Origin: Eledone cirrhosa
Lineage: Eukaryota
Direction of reading: 5' to 3'
Length of the DNA stretch: 64,000 bases
Assembly (NCBI GenBank): GCA_964016885.1
Contig: OZ024748.1
Coordinates: forward strand, 18,600,001-18,664,000
In this document: piece by piece, positions 8,052 to 58,613 of the stretch
Layout: each line of letters begins with the position of its first letter
Numbering within the stretch: the stretch's first letter is position 1
Made by a program: the position numbers and the translations under genes
The notes under the pieces: model-generated
Told to the model about the DNA's origin: nothing
Databases searched by the model: none
What the model saw: only the letters and a program-made list of their open reading frames with translations

Positions 8052-8189
8052 ATATTTTTCTTCATTTGTTCATGTGAACACACACTGATATACATACAAA
8101 TATACACACACATACATACATGTATGTATGTGTGTGTGTGTTTGTATGTATATCAGTGTGTGTTCACATGAACAAATGAAGAAAAATAT
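8052..8189. repeat. 138-bp spacerless palindrome
   Basis: ATATTTTTCTTCATTTGTTCATGTGAACACACACTGATA... is mirrored about CATACA|TGTATG (8120/8121) with about 2 mismatches. Confidence 0.9.
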
Positions 8190-10400: not shown

Positions 10401-10772
10401 TTAAAGGTTAAACAAGGTTCAATGAATAAATCAAAGAATGAGTTTTACAATAGATTGAAAGCACTCAACAGAGTGGTTTTCCGGAGTTATTAATATTAAT
10501 TCAAAATATTAACAAAATAGATATTCTTGTGATCAAGTATATTTTATTATATGGTAGTGAGTAATATATGACAAAATCCAGGTATATAAATATTGGATTT
10601 TGTCATATATTACTCACTACCATTACTGAATCTTAACCATCTACTATATCAGGGTATGTCATGCATCATCTTATTTTATCTGATGAGGACGTACTGTTGA
10701 AGTTAACTCTCTGAAATATGTATAATAAAATATACTTGATCACAAGAATATCTATTTTGTTAATATTTTGAA

Positions 10773-10779
<7 letters not shown>
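10400..10779 (+). mobile_element. TA-flanked hammerhead-bearing element with nested inverted repeats (Penelope pLTR/retrozyme-like)
   Basis: Outer arms 10493-10550 / 10721-10779, inner arms 10551-10580 / 10594-10623; homologous to 19133-19340. Confidence 0.7.
10673..10731 (+). ncRNA. Minimal type I hammerhead motif (stem II degraded)
   Basis: ATTTTAT-CTGATGA-...-GAAAT-ATGT-ATA-ATAAAAT: 7-bp stem I and an AUA triplet. Confidence 0.65.
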
Positions 10780-11132: not shown

Positions 11133-11157
11133 ATGATATATACTGTATATATGTCTG

Positions 11158-11193
<36 letters not shown>

Positions 11194-11201
11194 CACACAT
11201 A

Positions 11202-12429
11202 CGTCGACTTGGAGAAAGCCTTCGACAGAGTCCCCCGTTCCATTATCTGGTGGTCTCTTAGAAAACTAGGTGTTGATGAATGGCTTGTGAGAGCTATACA
11301 AGCCATGTATAAAGAAACAGTCAGTAAGGTTAGAATTAACAACGAATATAGTGAAGAGTTTAGCGTAAAAGTTGGTGTCCATCAGGGCTCTGTTCTTAGC
11401 CCCCTACTATTTATTATTGCCCTTCAGGCTATAACAGAGGAGTTCAAGACCGGCTGCCCATGGGAACTCCTATACGCAGATGATCTAACGCTCATAGCTG
11501 AATCAATGACCGAACTAGAGAAGAAATTCCAAACATGGAAGCACGGCCTAGAATCAAAAGGCCTTAAAGTTAACCTGGCTAAGACTAAAGTTCTAGTTTG
11601 TAGGAAAGAAAATAAGGCGACGGTCCCATCTGGGAAATGGCCATGCTCAGTGTGTAGGAAAGGCGTAGGTAGAAACTCCATTTTATGTCCCAAATGCAAA
11701 GTATGGGTGCATAAAAGATGTAGTGGGATCACAGGTAAGCTAACTAAGAACATAGATTTTACATGTGGCCGGTGCTCTGGTGCAATAAGTAGCAGCAAGT
11801 GCCCACAAAATACTAGCTCCTTCAACTGCGCAGAGGGTTCTATAGAAATAGTGGACAGCTTCCGTTACCTGGGTGACAAAATCAGCAGTGGGGGAGGGTG
11901 CTCTGAAAGTACAGTAGCTAGAGTCAGAACTGGATGGAAAAAGTTCAGAGAGCTTATACCACTATTAGCCGCTAGAGGGTTCTCCCTAAAAATGAAAGGC
12001 AGGTTATACGATGCCTGCATACGAACAGCAATGCTGCATGGCAGTGAGACCTGGGCATTGTGTGCAGAAGATATACGCAGACTAGAGAGGAACGAAGCTT
12101 GCATGCTCCGCTGGATGTGCAATAGTAATATACATGAACGGCAAAGCATAAACGAACTAAGGAAAAAATTAGAAATAAGAGGGATCAGATGTTGTTTACT
12201 CGAGAGAAGGCTACGTTGGTACGGTCACGTGATGCGCATGAAAGACGACAGCTGTATAACAAAGTGCAGGGCAATAAAGATAGACGGTAGCCACGAAGTA
12301 GGCAGACCCAGAAAAACATGGGACGAGCTGATAAATTCCGACCTCACACGCTTACACCTCTCCAAGACAATGTCACTGGACCGAGACCTTTGGCGGTACT
12401 CAGTAATAGAGAAGACCCGCCTTACCTAA
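11202..12429 (+). mobile_element. 5'-truncated RTE-clade LINE, RT C-terminal half with PHD-type finger, open frame
   Basis: DLEKAFD, GVHQGSVLSPLLF, LYADD, FRYLG and ERRLRWYGHVMR motifs; starts directly after a TA-rich tract. Confidence 0.95.
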
Positions 12430-15132: not shown

Positions 15133-15821
15133 CGAGGGCAATACCAAAAGTAAGGTCTCCAAAGCGATGGGACGCAGAGAAACTGTTCATACGGCTGTTG
15201 GCAACACTGTTGCGATTGGGGCTTCCTTCACTCCCAAACAAGCATTAATGCGCTTCACTGGGATGCTCAATCTTGGCTTGGCAGCCGTTGGGAATGGAGC
15301 TCCCGTTGAACGCTACTGCCAAGTGCGAAGTTTGCGCAGTTATTCGTTTTTTGAACACAAAAGGCGTTGAACCGATTGAAATTCATCGGCAATTGATGGA
15401 AGTATATGGACAGTCGTGCATGGATGTCAAAAACGTTCGCAAGTGGTGTAGAGAGTTTACAGCCGGTCGTACAGAAATTCACAACGAACAAAGGAGCGGG
15501 AGGATGTCAATTTCTGACGAGACAGTCGCAATTTTTCCGTTTAAATCCTGTGGATGGTGCTTCGGGAAACGTCAGGAACCAAAATGCAGAGAGCATCCAG
15601 ATGAATCAACCGATCTTTACGCATGTTTTCCTCAACCTTTCCTCAACCTGGAGGTCACTTCTCAACGGCTGCCAAGCCAAGATTGAGCATCTCAGCGAAG
15701 CGCGCGCATGCTTGTTTGGGAGTGAAGGCAGCACCAATCACAACAGTGTTGCCAACAGCCGTACGAACAGTTTCTCTGCGTCCCCATCGCTTTGGAGACC
15801 TTACTTTTGGGATTGCCCTCA
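15133..15821 (+). mobile_element. Non-autonomous mariner derivative with ~160-bp inverted arms and a transposase N-terminal remnant
   Basis: TA|CGAGGGCAATACCAAAAG...CTTTTGGGATTGCCCTCA|TA. ATG at 15294 encodes a mariner HTH: [35 protein letters not shown]. Confidence 0.92.
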
Positions 15822-17823: not shown

Positions 17824-18289
17824 ATACAATGAAAAAGACTAGCAATAACCTTTATAACCACCCCACATGGAATAAATAGATAAATAAATAAATAAATAAA
17901 AATGAGAAGTAATGTTTTTGCTGTGTTCAGATGTTAACTTTTGCCCATCACAGTTGAGTGGTTGTCTTTTGGGAGATAACATTGACCTGTTAACAACAGC
18001 AGTTAATGTCATAATTGAATTGTTCACAGAATAAATAAAATGGCCATATTTACTTATTTAGACATCCAAATAGAAAGTCTTTTATTAACAAACCTGTTAG
18101 CAAATATCAACAAGAAAAACAATTGGTGGTAAGGGAACAACAGATTTGTTAGATTAACAGTTTCACTAACATAGTTTGGTTCATTATAGGGATTTACATG
18201 AAGACATATATATATATATATATATAAAATATTAAAAAAATAATGAATAAAACAATGAAACAGTTCCTTATATTAAACAAAAAAAGTTC

Positions 18290-18438
18290 ATTATTTAACG
18301 ATCGTTTCTAGGATATATATGTGTTAGAATTGGCATGCATATTCAACAGATCTATGTACAAAATTATACAAAATTATACAAACTATCAAAATTAAATATA
18401 CATACCAAACACATATATATGCCGTCTTCAGAAATAAT
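18290..18438 (-). ncRNA. Type I hammerhead motif with long stem II (minus-strand twin)
   Basis: Mirror image of 18458-18596; TCTTCAG at 18425-18431 and GTTTC at 18304-18308. Confidence 0.7.
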
Positions 18439-18457
18439 AATTATTTCTGAAATAATA

Positions 18458-18596
18458 ATTATTTCTGAAGACGGCATATATATGTGTTTGGTATGTATAT
18501 TTAATTTTGATAGTTTGTATAATTTTGTACATAGATCTGTTGAATATGCATGCCAATTCTAACACATATATATCCTAGAAACGATCGTTAAATAAT
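18458..18596 (+). ncRNA. Type I hammerhead motif with long stem II
   Basis: ATTATTT-CTGAAGA-CGGC-ATATATATGTGTT...AACACATATATAT-CCTA-GAAAC-GATC-GTT-AAATAAT: 7-bp stem I and palindromic AACGATCGTT stem III. Confidence 0.7.
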
Positions 18597-18885
18597 GAAC
18601 TTTTTTTGTTTAATATAAGGAACTGTTTCATTGTTTTATTCATTATTTTTTTAATATTTTATCTTGACTCTGTATTCCGTTTATCTTTCACCGAAAGCGA
18701 TTTTTCATTGCATCTCTTCTTTCCATGATATCCGGATTACATTGAGTTCTTCATACGGATTGGACACTACCGTAAACTCTTGGTAGATTTATCTACATAT
18801 ATATATATATATATATATTATCTAAAGACATTTTTTTCCAATTCCAACCTGCGCGTCCCCTCAATCTATCTTATTTTTCATTCTT

Positions 18886-18921
18886 TCTTCTGATGAAGGA
18901 TTAGCGTCCGAAACGTTAAGA
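18886..18921 (+). ncRNA. Minimal type I hammerhead motif
   Basis: TCTT-CTGATGA-A-GGA-TTAGCG-TCC-GAAAC-GTT-AAGA; palindromic AACGTT. Confidence 0.75.
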
Positions 18922-19004
18922 CCCTCTTCCTGCTATATCAAGCGTTAACCTAATATATCCCTTCCATATACTGTACTGATTGTGTTGTTATTTCTGTTTA
19001 CTTT

Positions 19005-19043
<39 letters not shown>

Positions 19044-19175
19044 GTTTCTACTTTTGGCACAAGGCCAGCAATTAACCAGTACATTACTGGTACTTTATTT
19101 TATTGACCCCGTAAGGATGAAAGGCAAAGTTAAAAATATTAATAAATGAAAAATATTCTCATAACCAAAATATAT

Positions 19176-19350: not shown

Positions 19351-19669
19351 TATAAACGTTTGAATATGTATAATAAAGCCAAAACAATGCAGGTATGGAC
19401 ATAGAAAAAAGAATGCAATTGCAAAAGATATTGTTGACAATTCGTCTTTTACCTTAGATTTATTTTAAACGTCCTTAATTTTCGAGATAATATCTCTTCT
19501 TCAGAGGGAAATAAAGGTCTCAAACCACCGTTCTAAATATCTTGCCAACAATATCTTTTGCAATTGCATTCTTTTTTCTATGTCCATACCTGCATTGTTT
19601 TGGCTTTATTATACATATTCAAACGTTTATACCTCATTACACAATGCTTCAAGTGAACTATAACCTCCT

Positions 19670-19722: not shown

Positions 19723-20057
19723 GCTCTGTACAATACATAGAGCACACTTCTTTTCTATGGAAATACTTTCCATATATATATATATATCATCACTGTTTAA
19801 TGTACATTTTTCCATGCTGGCATGGGTTAGACGAGTTATCCTGTTGTGAACAATGCTAGGTCCGGTGGCCATGTCAAGGTCATACAGAATCAATTTGGGC
19901 TTGATTTCTACAGGTGGATGCCCTTCCTATTGTCAACCTCCTTTACACTGTGGATTGGGTGCTTTTTGCCGTGATACCTACACAACCACTTTACAGTGTG
20001 GGCTGGAGACTTCACTGTATATATATATATATATATATACCATATGTTTATATGTTT

Positions 20058-20368
20058 ATACACCATATATTTATGAATAATAAACATACAAGAGTCTCGC
20101 TATGAATATTTTAAGCTGTGATCATGTCACATCTATGTCAGTAGCCATGCAAGACTATCAGACATATGTTTCTGGATGTTTATCTGTTATCTGTGATAGT
20201 TACTCTCTTGGTATTAAGTAAACGTCACCAATGATGGATCAGATAAAAATCCAGTAACATTCCTTAGATTTTCTCATATGGCTGCTGAGATCGATGTGAC
20301 ATGATCACAGCTTAAAATATTCATAGTGAGACTCTTGTATGTATATTATACATAAACATATTGTATAT
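20058..20368. repeat. Diverged inverted repeat with complementary hammerhead remnants
   Basis: Left arm (minus): ATCCA-GAAAC-ATAT-GTC-TGA. Right arm: TCA-CCAATGA-TGGAT..ATCCA-GTAAC. Confidence 0.65.
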
Positions 20369-21122
20369 ATGCCTTCATATAGGTAGATCACTATTAGATT
20401 TGGTAATTAGTGACAAAAATACCTTGTGGTAATTGTTTGCATCCCTCTATGTTCTGAGTTAGTTCAATTTCTGCCACAATCAACTTTGTCTTTCAGCTTT
20501 CTGAGTTTCATAAAATAAGTACCAGTCATATACTGGGGTTTGATATAATTGACTGTACTCTTGATGGTAGTGCTCCAGTCTAATGACTGAAACCTGTTAA
20601 AGACTACATAAATGATACCAGCCTGCCTATATGGGGTTACTCATCCAACTTAAAACAAAGAGACAATATCTTGGCCTTACAAGCATTTTCAGGATATTTC
20701 CCTTACTAAATCACAGATTAACCATGTGTATCAAATGGCAGCTTTTGTATGCATCATGGAGTCCCTTTTGAGGCAATATTTTACGGTTGGACACCCTTCC
20801 TGGTGTTAACCCTGTTATCACCTCTTAAAACATGCAGGGATATGGCATACTTATTCTAAATCAGATACATAAACACATAAGACTTGATAGGTAGGTAGAT
20901 AAGTGGATAGATATGAAGGTAGGTAGATAGATATGAAGGTGGGAAGGTAGGTAGATTTTATTTATAGGAACAAAGAGAAAATTGTTTGGTGTTGGGAATT
21001 AGAAATAATAACTGACCCATAACTAAGATTTGTGCTTCTGAATCCAGTTAGTCATTATAGTGATACAAAAACTAGAGATTCACTATGATACACACCAACA
21101 CAGACTATTAGCTTTACACTGA

Positions 21123-24014: not shown

Positions 24015-25044
24015 GGAGCTTATCCTGGTTTCATCAGGTGTTGTGACTGAGAGTACAAGACTAGCCTGGATGGGATGCATGTCCAGCAAACTGGAGCTTA
24101 TCCTGGTTTCATCAGGTGTTGTGTGACTGAGAGTACAAGACTAGCCTGGATGGGATGCATGTCCAGCAAACTGGAGCTTATCCTGGTTTCATCAGGTGTT
24201 GTGTGACTGAGAGTACAAGACTAGCCTGGATGGGATGCATGTCCAGCAAACTGGAGCTTATCCTGGTTTCATCAGGTGTTGTGACTGAGAGTACAAGACT
24301 AGCCTGGATGGGATGCCTGTCCATCAAACTGGAGCTTATCCTGGTTTCATCAGGTGTTGTGTGACTGAGAGTACAAGACTAGCCTGGATGGGATGCATGT
24401 CCAGCAAACTGGAGCTTATCCTGGTTTCATCAGGTGTTGTGTGACTGAGAGTACAAGACTAGCCTGGATGGGATGCATGTCCAGCAAACTGGAGCTTATC
24501 CTGGTTTCATCAGGTGTTGTGTGACTGAGAGTACAAGACTAGCCTGGATGGGATGCCTGTCCATCAAACTGGAGCTTATCCTGGTTTCATGAGGTGTTGT
24601 GTGACTGAGAGTACAAGACTAGCCTGGATGGGATGCCTGTCCATCAAACTGGAGCTTATCCTGGTTTCATGAGGTGTTGTGTGACTGAGAGTACAAGACT
24701 AGCCTGGATGGGATGCCTGTCCATCAAACTGGAGCTTATCCTGGTTTCATGAGGTGTTGTGTGACTGAGAGTACACGACTAGCCTGGATGGGATGCATGT
24801 CCAGCAAACTGGAGCTTATCCTGGTTTCATCAGGTGTTGTGACTGAGAGTACAAGACTAGCCTGGATGGGATGCCTGTCCATCAAACTGGAGCTTATCCT
24901 GGTTTCATCAGGTGTTGTGTGAATGAGAGTACATGACTAGCCTGGATGGGATGCCTGTCCATCAAACTGGAGCTTATCCTGGCTTCATCAGGTGTTGTGT
25001 GACTGAGAGTACAAGACTAGCCTGGATGGGATGCCTGTCCATCA
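24015..25044. repeat. 78-80-bp tandem repeat, about 13 near-identical copies
   Basis: Unit GGAGCTTATCCTGGTTTCATCAGGTGTTGTGTGACTGAGAGTACAAGACTAGCCTGGATGGGATGCATGTCCAGCAAACT. Confidence 0.95.
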
Positions 25045-29558: not shown

Positions 29559-29563
<5 letters not shown>

Positions 29564-29689
29564 AACCAGTAAGACCCCGACAGCTGAGCTCAAGCCGTTT
29601 CGACGGCTAATTCTGGACTAAATCATTTAGTCCAGAATTAGCCGTCGAAACGGCTTGAGCTCATCTGTCGGGGTCTTACTGGTTCCTAT
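29559..29689. repeat. 131-bp palindrome at the edge of a TA tract
   Basis: Centre at 29624, one mismatch; contains GTTTC-GACGGC...GCCGTC-GAAAC. Confidence 0.9.
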
Positions 29690-42601: not shown

Positions 42602-43250
42602 ATATATATGTGTATATGTATATATATATATATGTGTATATGTATATATATATATATATGTGTATATGTATATATATATATATGTGTATATGTATATATA
42701 TATATATGGGTATATGTATATATATATATATGGGTATATGTATATATATATATATGTGTATATGTATATATATATGTGTATATGTATATATATATGTGTA
42801 TATGTATATATATGTGTATATGTATATATATATGTGTATATGTATATATATATGGGTATATGTATATATATATATATATGGGTATATGTATATATATATA
42901 TATGGGTATATGTATATATATATATATGGGTATATATATATATATGGGTATATGTATATATATATATATGGGTATATGTATATATATATATATGGGTATA
43001 TGTATATATATATATATGGGTATATGTATATATATATATATATATGGGTATATGTATATATATATATATATGGGTATATGTATATATATATATATGGGTA
43101 TATGTATATATATATATATATGGGTATATGTATATATATATATATGTGTATATGTATATATATATATATGTGTATATGTATATATATATATATGTGTATA
43201 TGAATATATATATATATGTGTATATGTATATATATATATATGTGTATATG

Positions 43251-43303
<53 letters not shown>

Positions 43304-43312
43304 GTGTATATG

Positions 43313-43346
<34 letters not shown>

Positions 43347-43424
43347 TATATGTGTGTATATATATGTGTATATATATATATGTGTATATGTATATATATA
43401 TATATGTGTATATATATATATATA

Positions 43425-43487
<63 letters not shown>

Positions 43488-43529
43488 ATATATATATATA
43501 TGTGTATATATATATATGTGTATATATAT
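42602..43529. repeat. (TA)n array with TGTG/TGGG variant units
   Basis: Read directly from the sequence. Confidence 0.95.
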
Positions 43530-43544
43530 GAAAAGCAAACCCTA

Positions 43545-43738
43545 GCCGTGTAGGCAACACGGTAAAAACCTCCCAGACCCACACTGTAAATGTGGTTGGT
43601 GTTAGGAAGGGCATCCAACTGTAGAAAACCTGCCAGACAGTCCTATGCGAGCAAGAAAATCACTCTTGCCTCAAGTGGGACTACCCCCGTCCAAACCCAT
43701 GCAAGCATGGAACACGGACGTTAAGCGTTGATGATGAT
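43545..43738 (+). mobile_element. Family C 3' part between TA arrays
   Basis: Matches 12735-12930. Confidence 0.85.
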
Positions 43739-50060
<6,322 letters not shown>

Positions 50061-54392: not shown

Positions 54393-55151
54393 TTAAAGAT
54401 ATACATGTGTCGCCTGTGGAGTGCTTAGCCACTTACCCATTAATTTCACAAGCAGGTTGTCCCATACAACTAGGACACTCATTGTCAGAATCTATGGGGA
54501 TCTAACGGCTACAATAACAACAACAGCAACAACAATTGTACAAATGTAATTATGTGGAAGACTTTGAAACTGATAGTGGCCCAAATGGATAGCTTTGTTG
54601 TTATAGTTAGTGACCTTAAGAAAACACTAGAATTGTTCAAACCCCTCTCTCACTCTTGTGGCTTTGAGGTGTCTGGTCATGTCTCTGGTGAGGTTTCACT
54701 ACTACTACTACTACTACCAGCACACCATCACTCCACCACCACAACCCGCCATCATAACCCTCCACCACAACACACTACCACACCACAACACCACACTACA
54801 AACACACACACACACACACCTTATCATCATCAACACGACCACCAGAGCTCCACCACCACCAAACACAGACCAAAATAAAAGCAAACCAATGTGAAAATTA
54901 ACCTGTTATATAAAGAAATATCTATCTATCTGTCTATCTATCAATTTATCTATCTATCTGTCTATTTTCTAATTTATCTATCTATCTATTATTAAACTTT
55001 ATTTTATTCTGAGTTTGAATTATTTTCCCATATCTTACGTTAATTATTTTCCATTTTGACGTTATAGTCACTTATATATTATGAAATACTGTTGGCTTCT
55101 TGCTCACATTAATTTCTATATTTTCATTTATATCTATTATATATATATATA

Positions 55152-58014
55152 GGGGGAGTAGGCATTTTCCTGGCTGAGAAATGGATCAATAAGACAATAG
55201 AGGTAGTTCGAGTTAGTAATCAAATAATTAAGCTTAGATTAGTTGTAGGTAGGAGACTACTGACAATCATCTCGGTCTATGCTCCCCAAGCAGGCCTAGG
55301 CAAAGATGAGAAAGACTGCTTTTATGAGCAACTTTTGCAAACAACCACAATGACAGAGGACGGAGACATCGTTATGCTAGCAGGAGACTTCAATGGTCAT
55401 GTTGGACAGCTCCAGGATGGTTACACTGGGGTACATGGTGGGCATGGTTACGGTTCAAGAAATGAAGAAGGAGTGAGACTTCTTGAATTTTGTGATGCAA
55501 GTACATTGACTATTTGCAACACAAACTTCCAGAAACCTGCCAATCACCTAATAACCTACAAATCTGGTGAGCACATAAGCCAGATTGACTTCCTGCTAGT
55601 TAGGCAGCGGGACAGGCAGATAGTGTCTAATACCAAGGCATACCCTGGGGAAGAATGTACCCCACAGCATAGGTTAGTTGTTAGTGATATCTCAGTAAGC
55701 AAGAGATGGAATGAGCCATATAGGAAGGTGTGGAGAAGAAAGGTCTGGAAGCTAAAAGACCTTTCACTAAAATTCAAATTTAGGAAAGCCCTTCAAGATG
55801 TATATGACGAAAAAGAAGACGATTTAGAGACGTATGACATAGATAATAACTGGAAGTTCTTACGTGACAACTTGCTGAAGGCTACTGATGAAACCTGTGG
55901 CTGGAGCAGAGCTCCAACCAGACAGAGAGTGACCTGGTGGTGGAACAGCAGTGTAGATAAGGCTATTAGAGACAAAAGACTAGCATGGAAGGCTTGGAAT
56001 AAGGGTGGGAGTAGGGAAGAATATACAGCCACTAAGAGAGAAGCTAGACGTCAGGTGTACTTAGCACGCAGGGAGGCAGAGAGTAGGAGGTTTGCCAATG
56101 TTCTGCGACGGGAAGATCAGAGGCGTGCGGTGTTCCACATTGCAAGGCAGTGTGTCAATGCAAATCAGGATGTTGTTGGAGATAAATGTGTCCGGGATGA
56201 TGCCGGTACTTAGTGTCACGAATGACCAGAAAAAGGAGGCCTGGAAATGTCATTATGAGAGACTGATGAATGTGGAGAACGAATGGGAGAGAGAGAAATT
56301 ACCCTTGGTAGATCCGACAGAGGGACCAGCTATTGAGATTGACGAATATAGGGTCCAAGAGGCGATTAGGGAAATGAAAAATGGTAAGGCGGCCGGACCA
56401 TCGGGAATAGTTGCTGAGATGCTGAAGGCATCAGGGGACGTAGGCACTAAACTGGTTGCACGCATAATCAATCAGGCTATATATGGTGGTGTCACACCCA
56501 AAGACTGGTGCAGCAGTATTCTCATAAATTGCTACAAAGGTAAAGGGGATGCTTTGGAGAGGAGCAATTATAGGGGTATAAAACTGATAGATCAGGTTAT
56601 GAAAGTGGCAGAAAGGATTTTAGCACAACTAATTAGAGAAAGGGTCAAACTAGATGAGATGCAGTTTGGTTTTGTGCCTGGGAAGAGTACAACAGATGCC
56701 CTCTTCTTGGTGAGACAAATGCAAGAGAGGTTCTTAGAGAAGAATAAGCCACTATACTTGGCCTTTGTTGACCTAGAGAAGGCCTTTGATAGGGTACCCC
56801 GATCTGTCATCTGGTGGTCCCTAAGGAAGCTGGGTGTTGAGGAATGGCTTGTAAGGACAGTGCAAACTTTGTACAGAGGTACTCTCAGTAAAGTCAGGGT
56901 AGGAATGGAGTTTAGTGAGGAATTCCAGATACAAGTAGGAGTACATCAGGGTTCGGTCCTCAGCCCGCTCTTGTTCATTATAGTCCTCCAAGCCATAACA
57001 GAGGAGTTTAAGACTGGCTGTCCATGGGAACTTCTCTATGCTGACGATCTGGCTCTTATGGCAGAATCAGTAGAGGAGCTAGAGAATAAATTCCGGCTAT
57101 GGAAACAGCAGTTGGAAGCAAGAGGACTGAGAGTAAATCTAGCTAAGACAAAAGTGTTGATGAGTAGAAAAGAGGACAAAACCCTGATTCCGTCAGGGAA
57201 ATGGCCATGTTCGATATGCAGAAAAGGAACTGGCATAAATTCTATAAAATGCACACAATGTAGGTCCTGGGTACACAAGAGATGTAGCGGGATAGCAGGC
57301 AAACTAACAGGTAGGGAGAAATATGTATGCAGTAGATGTACAGGGAAATTAGACAGTAGAAGTCGCACTGATAGACACATTTTTCAAATGCGAGAGGGCG
57401 CTATAGAAGTGGTGGATAGCTTCCGGTACCTAGGAGATCAGATTAGCATGGGAGGAGGGTGTTCCGAGGCCATAGTATCTAGAATAAGGACGGGTTGGAA
57501 GAAGTTTAGGGAGCTGCTTCCTCTGTTGACGAAGAAGGGTTTCTCCCTGCGTACGAAAGGCCGGTTGTATGATGCCTGTGTGAGGAGCGCGATGCTGCAT
57601 GGTAGTGAGACATGGGCAGCTACCGCAGAAGATATGCGACGGCTGGAGAGAAATGAGGCAAGCATGCTCCGTTGGATGTGCAGTGTAAATGTGCGTGAAC
57701 GACCCAGCATAAATGTGTTGAGAGAGAAACTGTGTCTGAGAGGGATAGAATGTAGTGTACGGGAGAGGAGACTGAGGTGGTATGGACATGTGATGCGCAT
57801 GGAGGATGACCGATGGGTGAAGAAGTGCCAGGAAATGCCAGTTGAAGGAAGATGTAGTAGAGGTAGACCACGAAAAACATGGGCGGAGGTGGTGAGAACA
57901 GACCTCAGATCATTGAAGCTCACGGTGGAGATGACGAGGGACCGTGACGAGTGGAGAGATGCTGTGCTGAATAAGACCCGTCCCACCCTTGCAAGCAGGG
58001 AAAAGCGGACGTAA
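55152..58014 (+). pseudogene. APE-RT polyprotein with a single frameshift near 56205-56213
   Basis: The frame is open 55152-56213 (..VRDDAGT*) and continues in the +1 frame (LSVTNDQKKEAW..) to TAA at 58014. Confidence 0.9.
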
Positions 58015-58285: not shown

Positions 58286-58613
58286 GGAGGCACATGGCTT
58301 AGTGGTTAAAGCATTGGCCTTGCAATCGAAAGGTTGTGAGTTCAATTCTCAGACCGAGTGATGTGTTGTTTCCTTGAGCAAGACACTTTATTTCACATTG
58401 CTCCAGTTTTCTCAGCTGTAGAAATGGGGTCCCTATCATTCCACTGCAAAGTGGTCGTGGAGGTGCCACGACAAAAAAGCACCCAGCACTCACTGTAAAT
58501 GAGGTTGGTGTTAGGAAGGGCATCCAGCTGTAGAAATCAAGCCAGAATCAGTTCCCGTCCCACCCTTGCAAGCAGGGAAAAGTGGACGTAAAATGAAATG
58601 ATGAAATGATGAT
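58286..58613 (+). mobile_element. SINE family A
   Basis: Same head, body and RTE tail as 29184. Confidence 0.9.

What the first reader, a model, noticed from the sequence alone, without database searches (positions are those of the whole stretch)
18224..18662. 439-bp palindrome with an enlarged hammerhead on each strand
Seen: near-perfect arms, with both CTGAAGA cores starting back-to-back at the centre. Each has a 7-bp stem I, GAAAC-GATC-GTT, and about 105-115 nt between the core halves closed by a 13-bp ATATATATGTGTT/AACACATATATAT helix. Such a large stem II domain is unusual for minimal hammerheads. Inference: a transcript from either strand could fold as a ~200-bp dsRNA rod or as the ribozyme, and the two folds exclude each other. 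The rod would be a plausible ADAR/Dicer substrate. The base of stem II (CGGC/CCTA) pairs imperfectly, so activity is uncertain.
Basis: partly seen in the sequence, partly recalled or inferred. Interest (0 to 1): 0.75.

Follow-up and report, generated by a model that had tools for sequence, protein, structure and literature searches.

The report
Mirror-joined starts of a Penelope retrotransposon
This palindrome is real but is one of hundreds of similar mirror-image stubs left by an abundant Penelope-like jumping gene, likely made when two short copies of the front end of its RNA, which carries an unusually large predicted self-cutting motif, are joined back to back.

Summary
The palindrome and both hammerhead motifs are real, but the unit runs 137 bp further (18224-18799) and sits in (TA)n. 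It is a head-to-head pair of pLTR fragments with a one-sided tail from a young Hydra-clade Penelope-like element: about 9,700 motif copies, at least 658 such junctions, and parents with intact RT/GIY-YIG ORFs. That layout is published, and this scan noted it, the long/short-arm rule and edited copies before on other DNA.

What the family adds:
- 45 of 51 palindromes pair one short and one long arm.
- 35 of 91 sampled copies stop about 7 nt before the ribozyme core, at an initiator-like site, often with an extra G. This likely marks a capped RNA start.
- The 99-116-nt stem II domain covaries across subfamilies, and its C-A base is conserved, not decay.
- Two A>G changes at the core reach 15-18% in one run of unrecorded type against about 0.2% of genomic copies, and one genomic copy looks hyper-edited.

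Cleavage is untested. The dsRNA rod excludes the ribozyme fold but looks like a by-product, not a switch.

The parts
18206..18225 (.). left (TA)n target tract
   Evidence: sequence
18224..18438 (-). short arm: inverted copy of the element's pLTR, from +1 (18438) to the first fixed 3' end ('+205' site)
   Evidence: an exact copy of these 215 nt lies in 13 held loci, some overlapping
18290..18438 (-). type I hammerhead motif, left: stem I 18438-18432 with 18296-18290, core 18431-18425, 116-nt stem II domain, predicted cut between 18297 and 18296
   Evidence: cleavage is predicted only
18439..18457 (.). junction filler; with its edges an 18-bp unit written twice, templated from the arm ends
   Evidence: comparable iterated fillers at other loci
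18458..18662 (+). long arm, first part: pLTR from +1 (18458, inferred capped RNA start) to the '+205' site
18458..18596 (+). type I hammerhead motif, right: stem I 18458-18464 with 18590-18596, core 18465-18471, 106-nt stem II domain 18472-18577, GAAA 18578-18581, palindromic stem III, predicted cut after 18589
   Evidence: cleavage is predicted only
18577..18581 (+). A11.1 (18577, UAG, opposite C) and A15.1 (18581): candidate A-to-I sites of the family's RNA
   Evidence: not shown for this locus itself
18663..18799 (+). 137-bp one-sided tail up to the second fixed 3' end ('+342' site); in full-length copies this is the 5' UTR leading to the ORF
18797..18818 (.). right (TA)n target tract
   Evidence: sequence

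Best explanation
The palindrome is a head-to-head insertion of two short pLTR copies of a young, abundant Hydra-clade Penelope-like retrotransposon into a (TA)n tract, likely made by two priming events on one RNA. Shown: the family, its RT/GIY-YIG parent, two fixed 3' ends 137 bp apart, the short-arm/long-arm pairing and the pile-up of 5' ends at +1. Inferred, step by step: (1) a promoter in the pLTR starts a capped RNA at +1, 7 nt before the hammerhead core; (2) the element protein cuts both strands of (TA)n and primes on the uncleaved RNA internally, once at +205 and once at +342; (3) both cDNAs run off the nearby 5' end, often adding a C opposite the cap; (4) their AT-rich 3' ends are joined head-to-head by microhomology and short templated repeats. 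The product is a non-coding stub. A read-through transcript would fold as a rod that locks out the ribozyme and would be an incidental ADAR substrate. The enlarged hammerhead is a conserved feature of the parent RNA, predicted to cleave weakly, probably as a dimer or with protein help.
For: Family size 9,661 exact 19-mers, control 0. Of 99 neighbouring pairs among the first 100 places, 16 are head-to-head within 400 bp and 0 tail-to-tail. 658 exact junctions with varied centres. Parent L054: pLTR-tail, 813-aa ORF, pLTR, (TA)n, with Hydra-clade motifs. Two 3' ends in both subfamilies. 45 of 51 junctions are short+long; arms differ by a mean of 0.47 mismatches within a locus against 4.1 between loci (subfamily A), and 2.4 against 9.5 (B). 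L208 and L221 carry the same rare change in both arms. 35 of 91 copies end near +1, against 14 spread over the next ~140 nt; 42 continue upstream. G precedes +1 in 16 of 53 arms against 5 of 229 filler bases at -2 to -6; untemplated 5' G is attributed to cap copying for L1/SVA (PMC3287187, passages). Internal initiation at two sites defining the tail, extension of both strands, a predicted dimer and use of uncleaved RNA are shown in vitro for the anole PLE (PMC11167929).
Against: No RNA start was mapped: no listed run is on record as RNA, and contigs cannot show ends. No DPE-like motif at +28 to +32 (read from the sequence; consensus recalled). Some G's at -1 can be templated, from the native C mirrored in the other arm or from CAG of the opposite core. 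A conserved AATAAA lies 14-9 nt before +1, so a 3'-processing cut could make the same end. Near-identical arms fit single-cDNA snap-back or later homogenisation equally well. 6 of 51 junctions break the short/long rule; L002 joins two subfamilies, both long. The junctions were largely selected by a pattern that demands a centre near the core, and the sample covers contig C1 only, apart from L001 and L002.
Confidence: 0.65

Rival explanations
1. Same element, but the inverted arm arises by self-priming: one cDNA primed at +342 reaches the RNA end, snaps back and copies itself, and the returning strand is joined to the target at the TTTTAT microhomology at +205.
For: Arms are nearly identical within loci; iterated fillers look like snap-back; self-priming was proposed for head-to-head PLE junctions (PMC3846280, passages).
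Against: +205 is also the ordinary 3' end of solo and full-length copies, which suggests a priming site. The short/long pairing also holds in kilobase-long inverted insertions (L047-L050). L002 has arms from two subfamilies (12 mismatches, 3 gaps), and L067 differs at 8 places.
Confidence: 0.17
2. The +1 end is not a transcription start but the downstream product of cleavage after the upstream AATAAA in read-through RNA, or a fixed RT stop.
For: AATAAA at the same spacing in subfamilies A and B and present, slightly further upstream, in D; 42 of 91 copies read through +1.
Against: The spacing is shorter than usual for poly(A) cleavage (recalled). The +1 A is kept after non-native G, whereas a cut after CA would remove it. 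G is enriched only at -1.
Confidence: 0.14
3. The locus is a selected rod/ribozyme RNA switch or small-RNA source.
For: Mutually exclusive folds; signs of editing in family RNA.
Against: Hundreds of equivalent independent insertions; a very young copy; no host exon recognised among the window's ORFs by eye; the rod wins by about 150 kcal/mol, so there is no balance to switch.
Confidence: 0.03
4. Fold-back chimera or assembly artefact.
For: Palindromes are a known artefact class; no contig spans this locus.
Against: Unequal arms ending at two fixed sites, a templated centre and (TA)n on both sides. The same head-to-head junction shows as a loose end in a run of another organism and study (X6).
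Confidence: 0.01

Closest known systems
Hydra-clade C-terminal EN+ Penelope-like elements, e.g. Hydra-1_Obim and Penelope-13_HM (PMC8557442: passages, section 11, supplement parts 1-2 and one supplement search)
   Same: RT plus C-terminal GIY-YIG, DKT, RW(K/R), CxCX5C linker, CxxC and CxH around E and N, no CCHH, (TA)n targets, sense hammerhead, inverted 5'-truncated copy, one-sided tail. The N-terminal half of the Hydra-1_Obim ORF matches motif by motif by eye.
   Different: Subfamily A is about 7 kb with a ~4-kb microsatellite-rich 3' UTR (published Hydra elements mostly <3 kb). The tail is 137 bp (published 30-40). The stem II domain is 99-116 nt in most copies (File S2 Hydra loops 3-11 nt on 3-7-bp stems). 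A fixed 5' end at +1 is not described in what I read.
Inverted-pLTR insertions of Adineta vaga Penelope (Pen2a_Av; PMC3846280, passages)
   Same: Head-to-head inverted pLTR, palindrome at the junction, optional tail on one arm, Inr-like sequence inside the pLTR.
   Different: That paper favours self-priming on an antisense template; here the arm ends and edited copies point to sense RNA and two priming sites.
PAc, Poseidon of Anolis carolinensis (PMC11167929, parts 1-2 of 4 read)
   Same: Two internal RT start sites define the tail; AT-rich targets; the hammerhead lies just upstream of the priming sites; uncleaved RNA is the main template.
   Different: Other clade; small hammerhead overlapping the ORF start; the paper assumes a multi-copy mRNA and does not explain head-to-head joining.
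Minimal PLE hammerheads (PMC4209133, parts 1-2 of 4 read)
   Same: Type I, extra base after A9, tiny palindromic stem III implying dimers, and opposite-strand pairs 100-700 bp apart already noted in Schistosoma.
   Different: Helix II there is 7-8 bp with G10.1-C11.1; here about 30 bp with C-A next to the core.
Metazoan non-LTR retrozymes (10.64898/2026.07.22.740005, part 1 of 5 read)
   Same: Non-coding PLE-derived sequence carrying a type I hammerhead.
   Different: Retrozymes are head-to-tail tandem arrays; this is a single inverted pair and has an autonomous parent.

Membership tests
EN+ Penelope-like element | single ORF with PLE-type RT and GIY-YIG endonuclease in the parent | tested here: met
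   813-aa ORF with YRDD and IVYKC...YIGAT; 118 homologues (unnamed); no Pfam hit, so the assignment rests on motifs and on the by-eye match to Hydra-1_Obim
EN+ Penelope-like element | pLTRs from partial tandems, inverted 5'-truncated copy, one-sided tail | tested here: met
Hydra clade | DKT, RWK-like motif, CxCX5C linker, CxxC/CxH around E and N, no CCHH | tested here: met
   read against PMC8557442 section 11; RWR instead of RWK
Hydra clade | insertion into (TA)n | tested here: met
   nearly all 3' ends, apart from those running into the ORF, are followed by (TA)n
Hydra clade | placement in the clade on an RT tree | not tested
   reference sequences were seen only in a supplement and were not used in tools
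Hydra clade | short element (<3 kb, 'generally') | tested here: not met
   L054 spans about 7.3 kb pLTR to pLTR because of a microsatellite-rich 3' UTR; a tendency in the paper, not a diagnostic
Type I hammerhead ribozyme | core CUGANGA, GAAA, NUH, stems I-III in order | tested here: met
   186 of 192 copies keep CTGAAGA; GUU or GUA at the site (copies found by a pattern allowing one change per core half); 96.7% of cells paired
Type I hammerhead ribozyme | G10.1-C11.1 pair next to the core | tested here: not met
   C faces A in most copies; Hydra-clade motifs often have T-T there
Type I hammerhead ribozyme | self-cleavage | not testable with these tools
   the genomic footprint of cleavage was inconclusive
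Non-LTR retrozyme | head-to-tail tandem non-coding units each with a hammerhead | tested here: not met
   no same-strand +/+ pair under 400 bp and one -/- pair among the first 100 places; direct repeats flank an ORF

The most novel reading that the evidence does not exclude
These palindromes are trapped 'strong-stop' products. The element's RNA starts capped 7 nt before its hammerhead and ends just after the AATAAA that precedes the same site in the downstream pLTR. Full-length Penelope copies would then need a retrovirus-like jump of the short cDNA from the RNA's 5' end to its 3' end, and failed jumps would be joined head-to-head. The 30-bp stem II would recruit ADAR to edit the ribozyme's own core (A11.1 to I closing a C-I pair, A15.1 to I altering stem III), so that host editing tunes self-cleavage of a retrotransposon RNA.
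Probability: 0.18. Interest if true: 0.75.

Novelty: new variant of a known kind. Interest (0 to 1): 0.42.

Why it matters
The locus itself is retrotransposon debris. The family is useful because how PLEs make inverted and partial-tandem insertions, and what their hammerheads do, are open questions (PMC8557442, PMC11167929, PMC2377424). Thousands of young copies with single-nucleotide ends give an exact prediction: capped start at +1, priming at +205 and +342, one on each target strand. It can be tested with an element whose ORF is intact. A natural PLE hammerhead with a ~30-bp stem II and possible editing in its core would link ADAR to ribozyme control.

Tried and rejected
- Rfam, gathering threshold: no hammerhead hit. 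Pfam: no significant hit for two ORFs.
- RNA expression: no RNA holder listed. All runs laid were contigs, so no starts, ends, introns or levels could be read, and the depth profile of X4 was not used.
- Footprint of self-cleavage: 32 palindromes have arms starting within 30 nt upstream of the predicted cut, 8 of them with a 0-1-nt spacer, including 5 blunt subfamily-B joints in different flanks. Nine sit on the natural stem III dyad, and the neighbouring downstream window holds 105. No enrichment is shown, so this is inconclusive.
- Stem I swaps: 19 matches. Of 10 fetched, 2 were native sequence of another subfamily, and such joints do not need cleavage.
- Family-wide editing scar: none. A>G against T>C per 1000 sites was 4.5 vs 4.7 (150 A copies) and 3.4 vs 5.4 (73 B copies); a few misaligned loci inflate T>C.
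- Editing as a folding switch: reading A11.1 as G changes the gap to the hammerhead fold only from 3.9 to 3.6 kcal/mol.
- Propagation of one master palindrome: rejected because the centres differ and both subfamilies make them.
- Host gene: none recognised among window ORFs by eye; no family scan was run on them.
- No hammerhead was found behind the 48%-identical ORF in L200.

Full report
Observation. The arms 18224-18438 (minus) and 18458-18662 (plus) match base for base except for a 10-bp tandem unit, present twice on the left and once on the right. The centre is an 18-bp unit written twice. The right arm goes on for 137 bp beyond the palindrome, and (TA)n lies on both sides. The host is an animal genome of 3.0 Gb; earlier notes call it octopus-type, which I did not check.

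It is a repeat family. One 19-mer of the motif has 9,661 exact matches, control 0. Among the first 100 places, 16 neighbouring pairs are head-to-head within 400 bp and none tail-to-tail; 13 more are head-to-head at 0.4-15 kb. An exact pattern for back-to-back cores with up to 30 nt between them finds 658 loci with varied centres in two subfamilies. The window's own spacer is 33 nt and is not counted, so 658 is a floor.

The parent. I fetched 14 longer regions. L054 reads pLTR plus tail, ORF, ~4 kb microsatellite-rich UTR, pLTR, (TA)n; L057 also holds a complete ORF. The 813-aa protein has YRDD, a C-terminal GIY-YIG, DKT, RWR, CxCX5C, CxxC and CxH around E and N, and no CCHH. These are the features given for the Hydra clade (PMC8557442 section 11), and the N-terminal half of Hydra-1_Obim matches by eye. 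Pfam is silent and I built no tree. The window's left arm is identical to copies in 13 held loci, some overlapping, so the insertion is very young.

Ends. Numbering from the A of ATTATTT as +1, copies end 3' at +205 or +342 (subfamily A) and +196 or +328 (B), followed by (TA)n. Of 51 head-to-head junctions held, 45 pair a short with a long arm, 3 a short with an unclassified arm, 2 are short-short and 1 long-long; most were picked by the pattern. Arms within a locus differ by a mean of 0.47 mismatches (32 A loci) against 4.1 between loci, and 2.4 (14 B loci) against 9.5. In 91 copies sampled by an anchor downstream of the ribozyme (loci covering the first 100 places), 35 stop at or near +1, 14 stop inside the next ~140 nt and 42 continue into native upstream sequence. 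Genome-wide, the base before +1 is the native C in 3,969 and another base in 2,212 matches; the latter include a subfamily whose native base is A.

Why +1. The site reads TC-A-TT, an initiator-like sequence (consensus recalled), kept in subfamilies A, B and D. In palindromic junctions G precedes +1 in 16 of 53 arms, but makes up 5 of 229 filler bases at -2 to -6. Untemplated 5' G on full-length L1 and SVA copies is attributed to copying of the cap (PMC3287187, passages). Against this: some of these G's can be templated from the other arm, few solo junctions were held, an AATAAA lies 14-9 nt upstream, and no RNA start could be mapped. A pLTR-internal promoter is shown for Drosophila Penelope (PMC2377424, passages), and an Inr-like site was noted in Adineta pLTRs (PMC3846280, passages).

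Mechanism. The anole PLE protein cuts and extends both target strands, starts reverse transcription at two internal sites that define the tail, is predicted to be a dimer, and uses uncleaved RNA (PMC11167929, parts 1-2 of 4). Carried over here by inference: two primings at +205 and +342 on an RNA that begins at +1 give two short cDNAs with the same 3' end, which are then joined by microhomology and short templated repeats. Single-cDNA snap-back remains a rival. The inverted copy and one-sided tail are published PLE features, and opposite-strand hammerhead pairs 100-700 bp apart were noted in 2014 (PMC4209133). A search for Penelope with twin priming, inverted and both strands found no paper; that library lacks most subscription papers.

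The hammerhead. In 30 diverse copies the named structure is 96.7% paired, with 6 pairs changed on both sides (15 cells; 0 of 500 shuffles reach that). The sequences are related and the structure came from one of them, so this is support, not a probability. The pair one step from the core is A-U, G-U or G-C, and C faces A at the core junction in most of 192 copies. A separate family in this genome, with a ~50-nt domain, has the same C-A (L053, L067), and many Hydra-clade motifs have T-T there (File S2). No Hydra motif in that table has a loop II over 11 nt, though a descriptor search would miss large ones. The isolated motif lies 3.9 kcal/mol above an inactive fold, and 10.3 with the tail; a read-through transcript prefers the rod by about 150. 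Stem III is palindromic, which suggests dimer cleavage as for other PLE motifs, and the second motif of the palindrome is antisense and cannot be the partner. The genomic trace of cleavage is inconclusive; at most a small minority of copies start at the cut site.

Editing. In run X4 (88 Mb of contigs, type not on record, a different sample from X1/X2), A>G stands at window 18577 in 358 of 2,354 depth units (18 contigs) and at 18581 in 464 of 2,514 (19 contigs); X1 shows 0 and X2 about 0.01%. The assembly has 17 copies with G at the first site and 21 at the second (20 plus one double) beside 9,661 unchanged. Three other TAG sites in the arm were not listed at 3%. The double copy, L202, has 9 A>G among 12 differences at otherwise invariant columns (2 of the 9 selected by the pattern), some beyond the ribozyme, whereas no unselected copy has more than 2. 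That is the pattern of an edited RNA written back into DNA. Against: X4 is not known to be RNA, no matched DNA exists, a few expressed variant loci such as L202 could contribute, and there is no family-wide A>G excess. Searches for hammerhead with A-to-I editing and Penelope found no paper, and a broader one found two unrelated reviews (listing only).

Verdict. A real, young but ordinary type of PLE insertion, which this scan has reported before on other DNA together with the short/long rule and edited copies. The enlarged conserved hammerhead, the fixed and probably capped 5' end and the possible core editing make it a new variant with a testable mechanism. Supplements were read only for PMC8557442 (parts 1-2 of 57 and one search); those of PMC11167929 and PMC4209133 were not seen and may show larger motifs or 5' ends.

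Noticed in passing
window 18880-18925 (+): Minimal PLE-type hammerhead (CTGATGA-A-GGA...TCC-GAAACGTT) of another element, starting right after the (TA)n that ends this insertion.
   Followed up: no
window 19351-19631, 20057-20369, 29559-29689, 10493-10779, 8052-8189: Five more inverted repeats. Three of them (19351, 29559, 10493) lie beside (TA)n with hammerhead-like core pieces and are probably stubs of other PLE families.
   Followed up: partly
window ~24020-25010 (-): Tandem array of about twelve 78-80-bp units, each with CTGATGAAAC or CTCATGAAAC; not a canonical hammerhead order, nature unknown.
   Followed up: no
L053 (+123), L063, L067, L144: Second family with an enlarged (~50-nt) stem II and C-A next to the core; parent not identified.
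   Followed up: partly
L202 = G000:C3:125969000-125970300: Subfamily-B copy with 9 sense-strand A>G changes and two more just upstream: a likely ADAR-edited RNA fixed in DNA.
   Followed up: yes
L002 = G000:C20:30822338-30825548: 818-bp palindrome whose arms come from subfamilies A and B, both ending at the long site: two RNAs or two events.
   Followed up: partly
L019, L029, L031, L032, L106, L110: Subfamily in which the pLTR from +1 is fused to the end of a SINE-like repeat (label recalled; the same repeat lies at window 19040-19130) and has been amplified as a chimera.
   Followed up: partly
L200 7388-9738 (-): A more distant Hydra-type ORF, 36-51% identical to P0001, in three pieces.
   Followed up: partly
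window 11137-12426, 55113-58011, 15249-15683, 58295-58352: RT-like ORFs of LINE type and a mariner-like fragment (labels recalled, not scanned); a tRNA-like match at Rfam threshold.
   Followed up: no
window ~43000-50000: Several kb of TA-rich microsatellite with extreme G skew.
   Followed up: no
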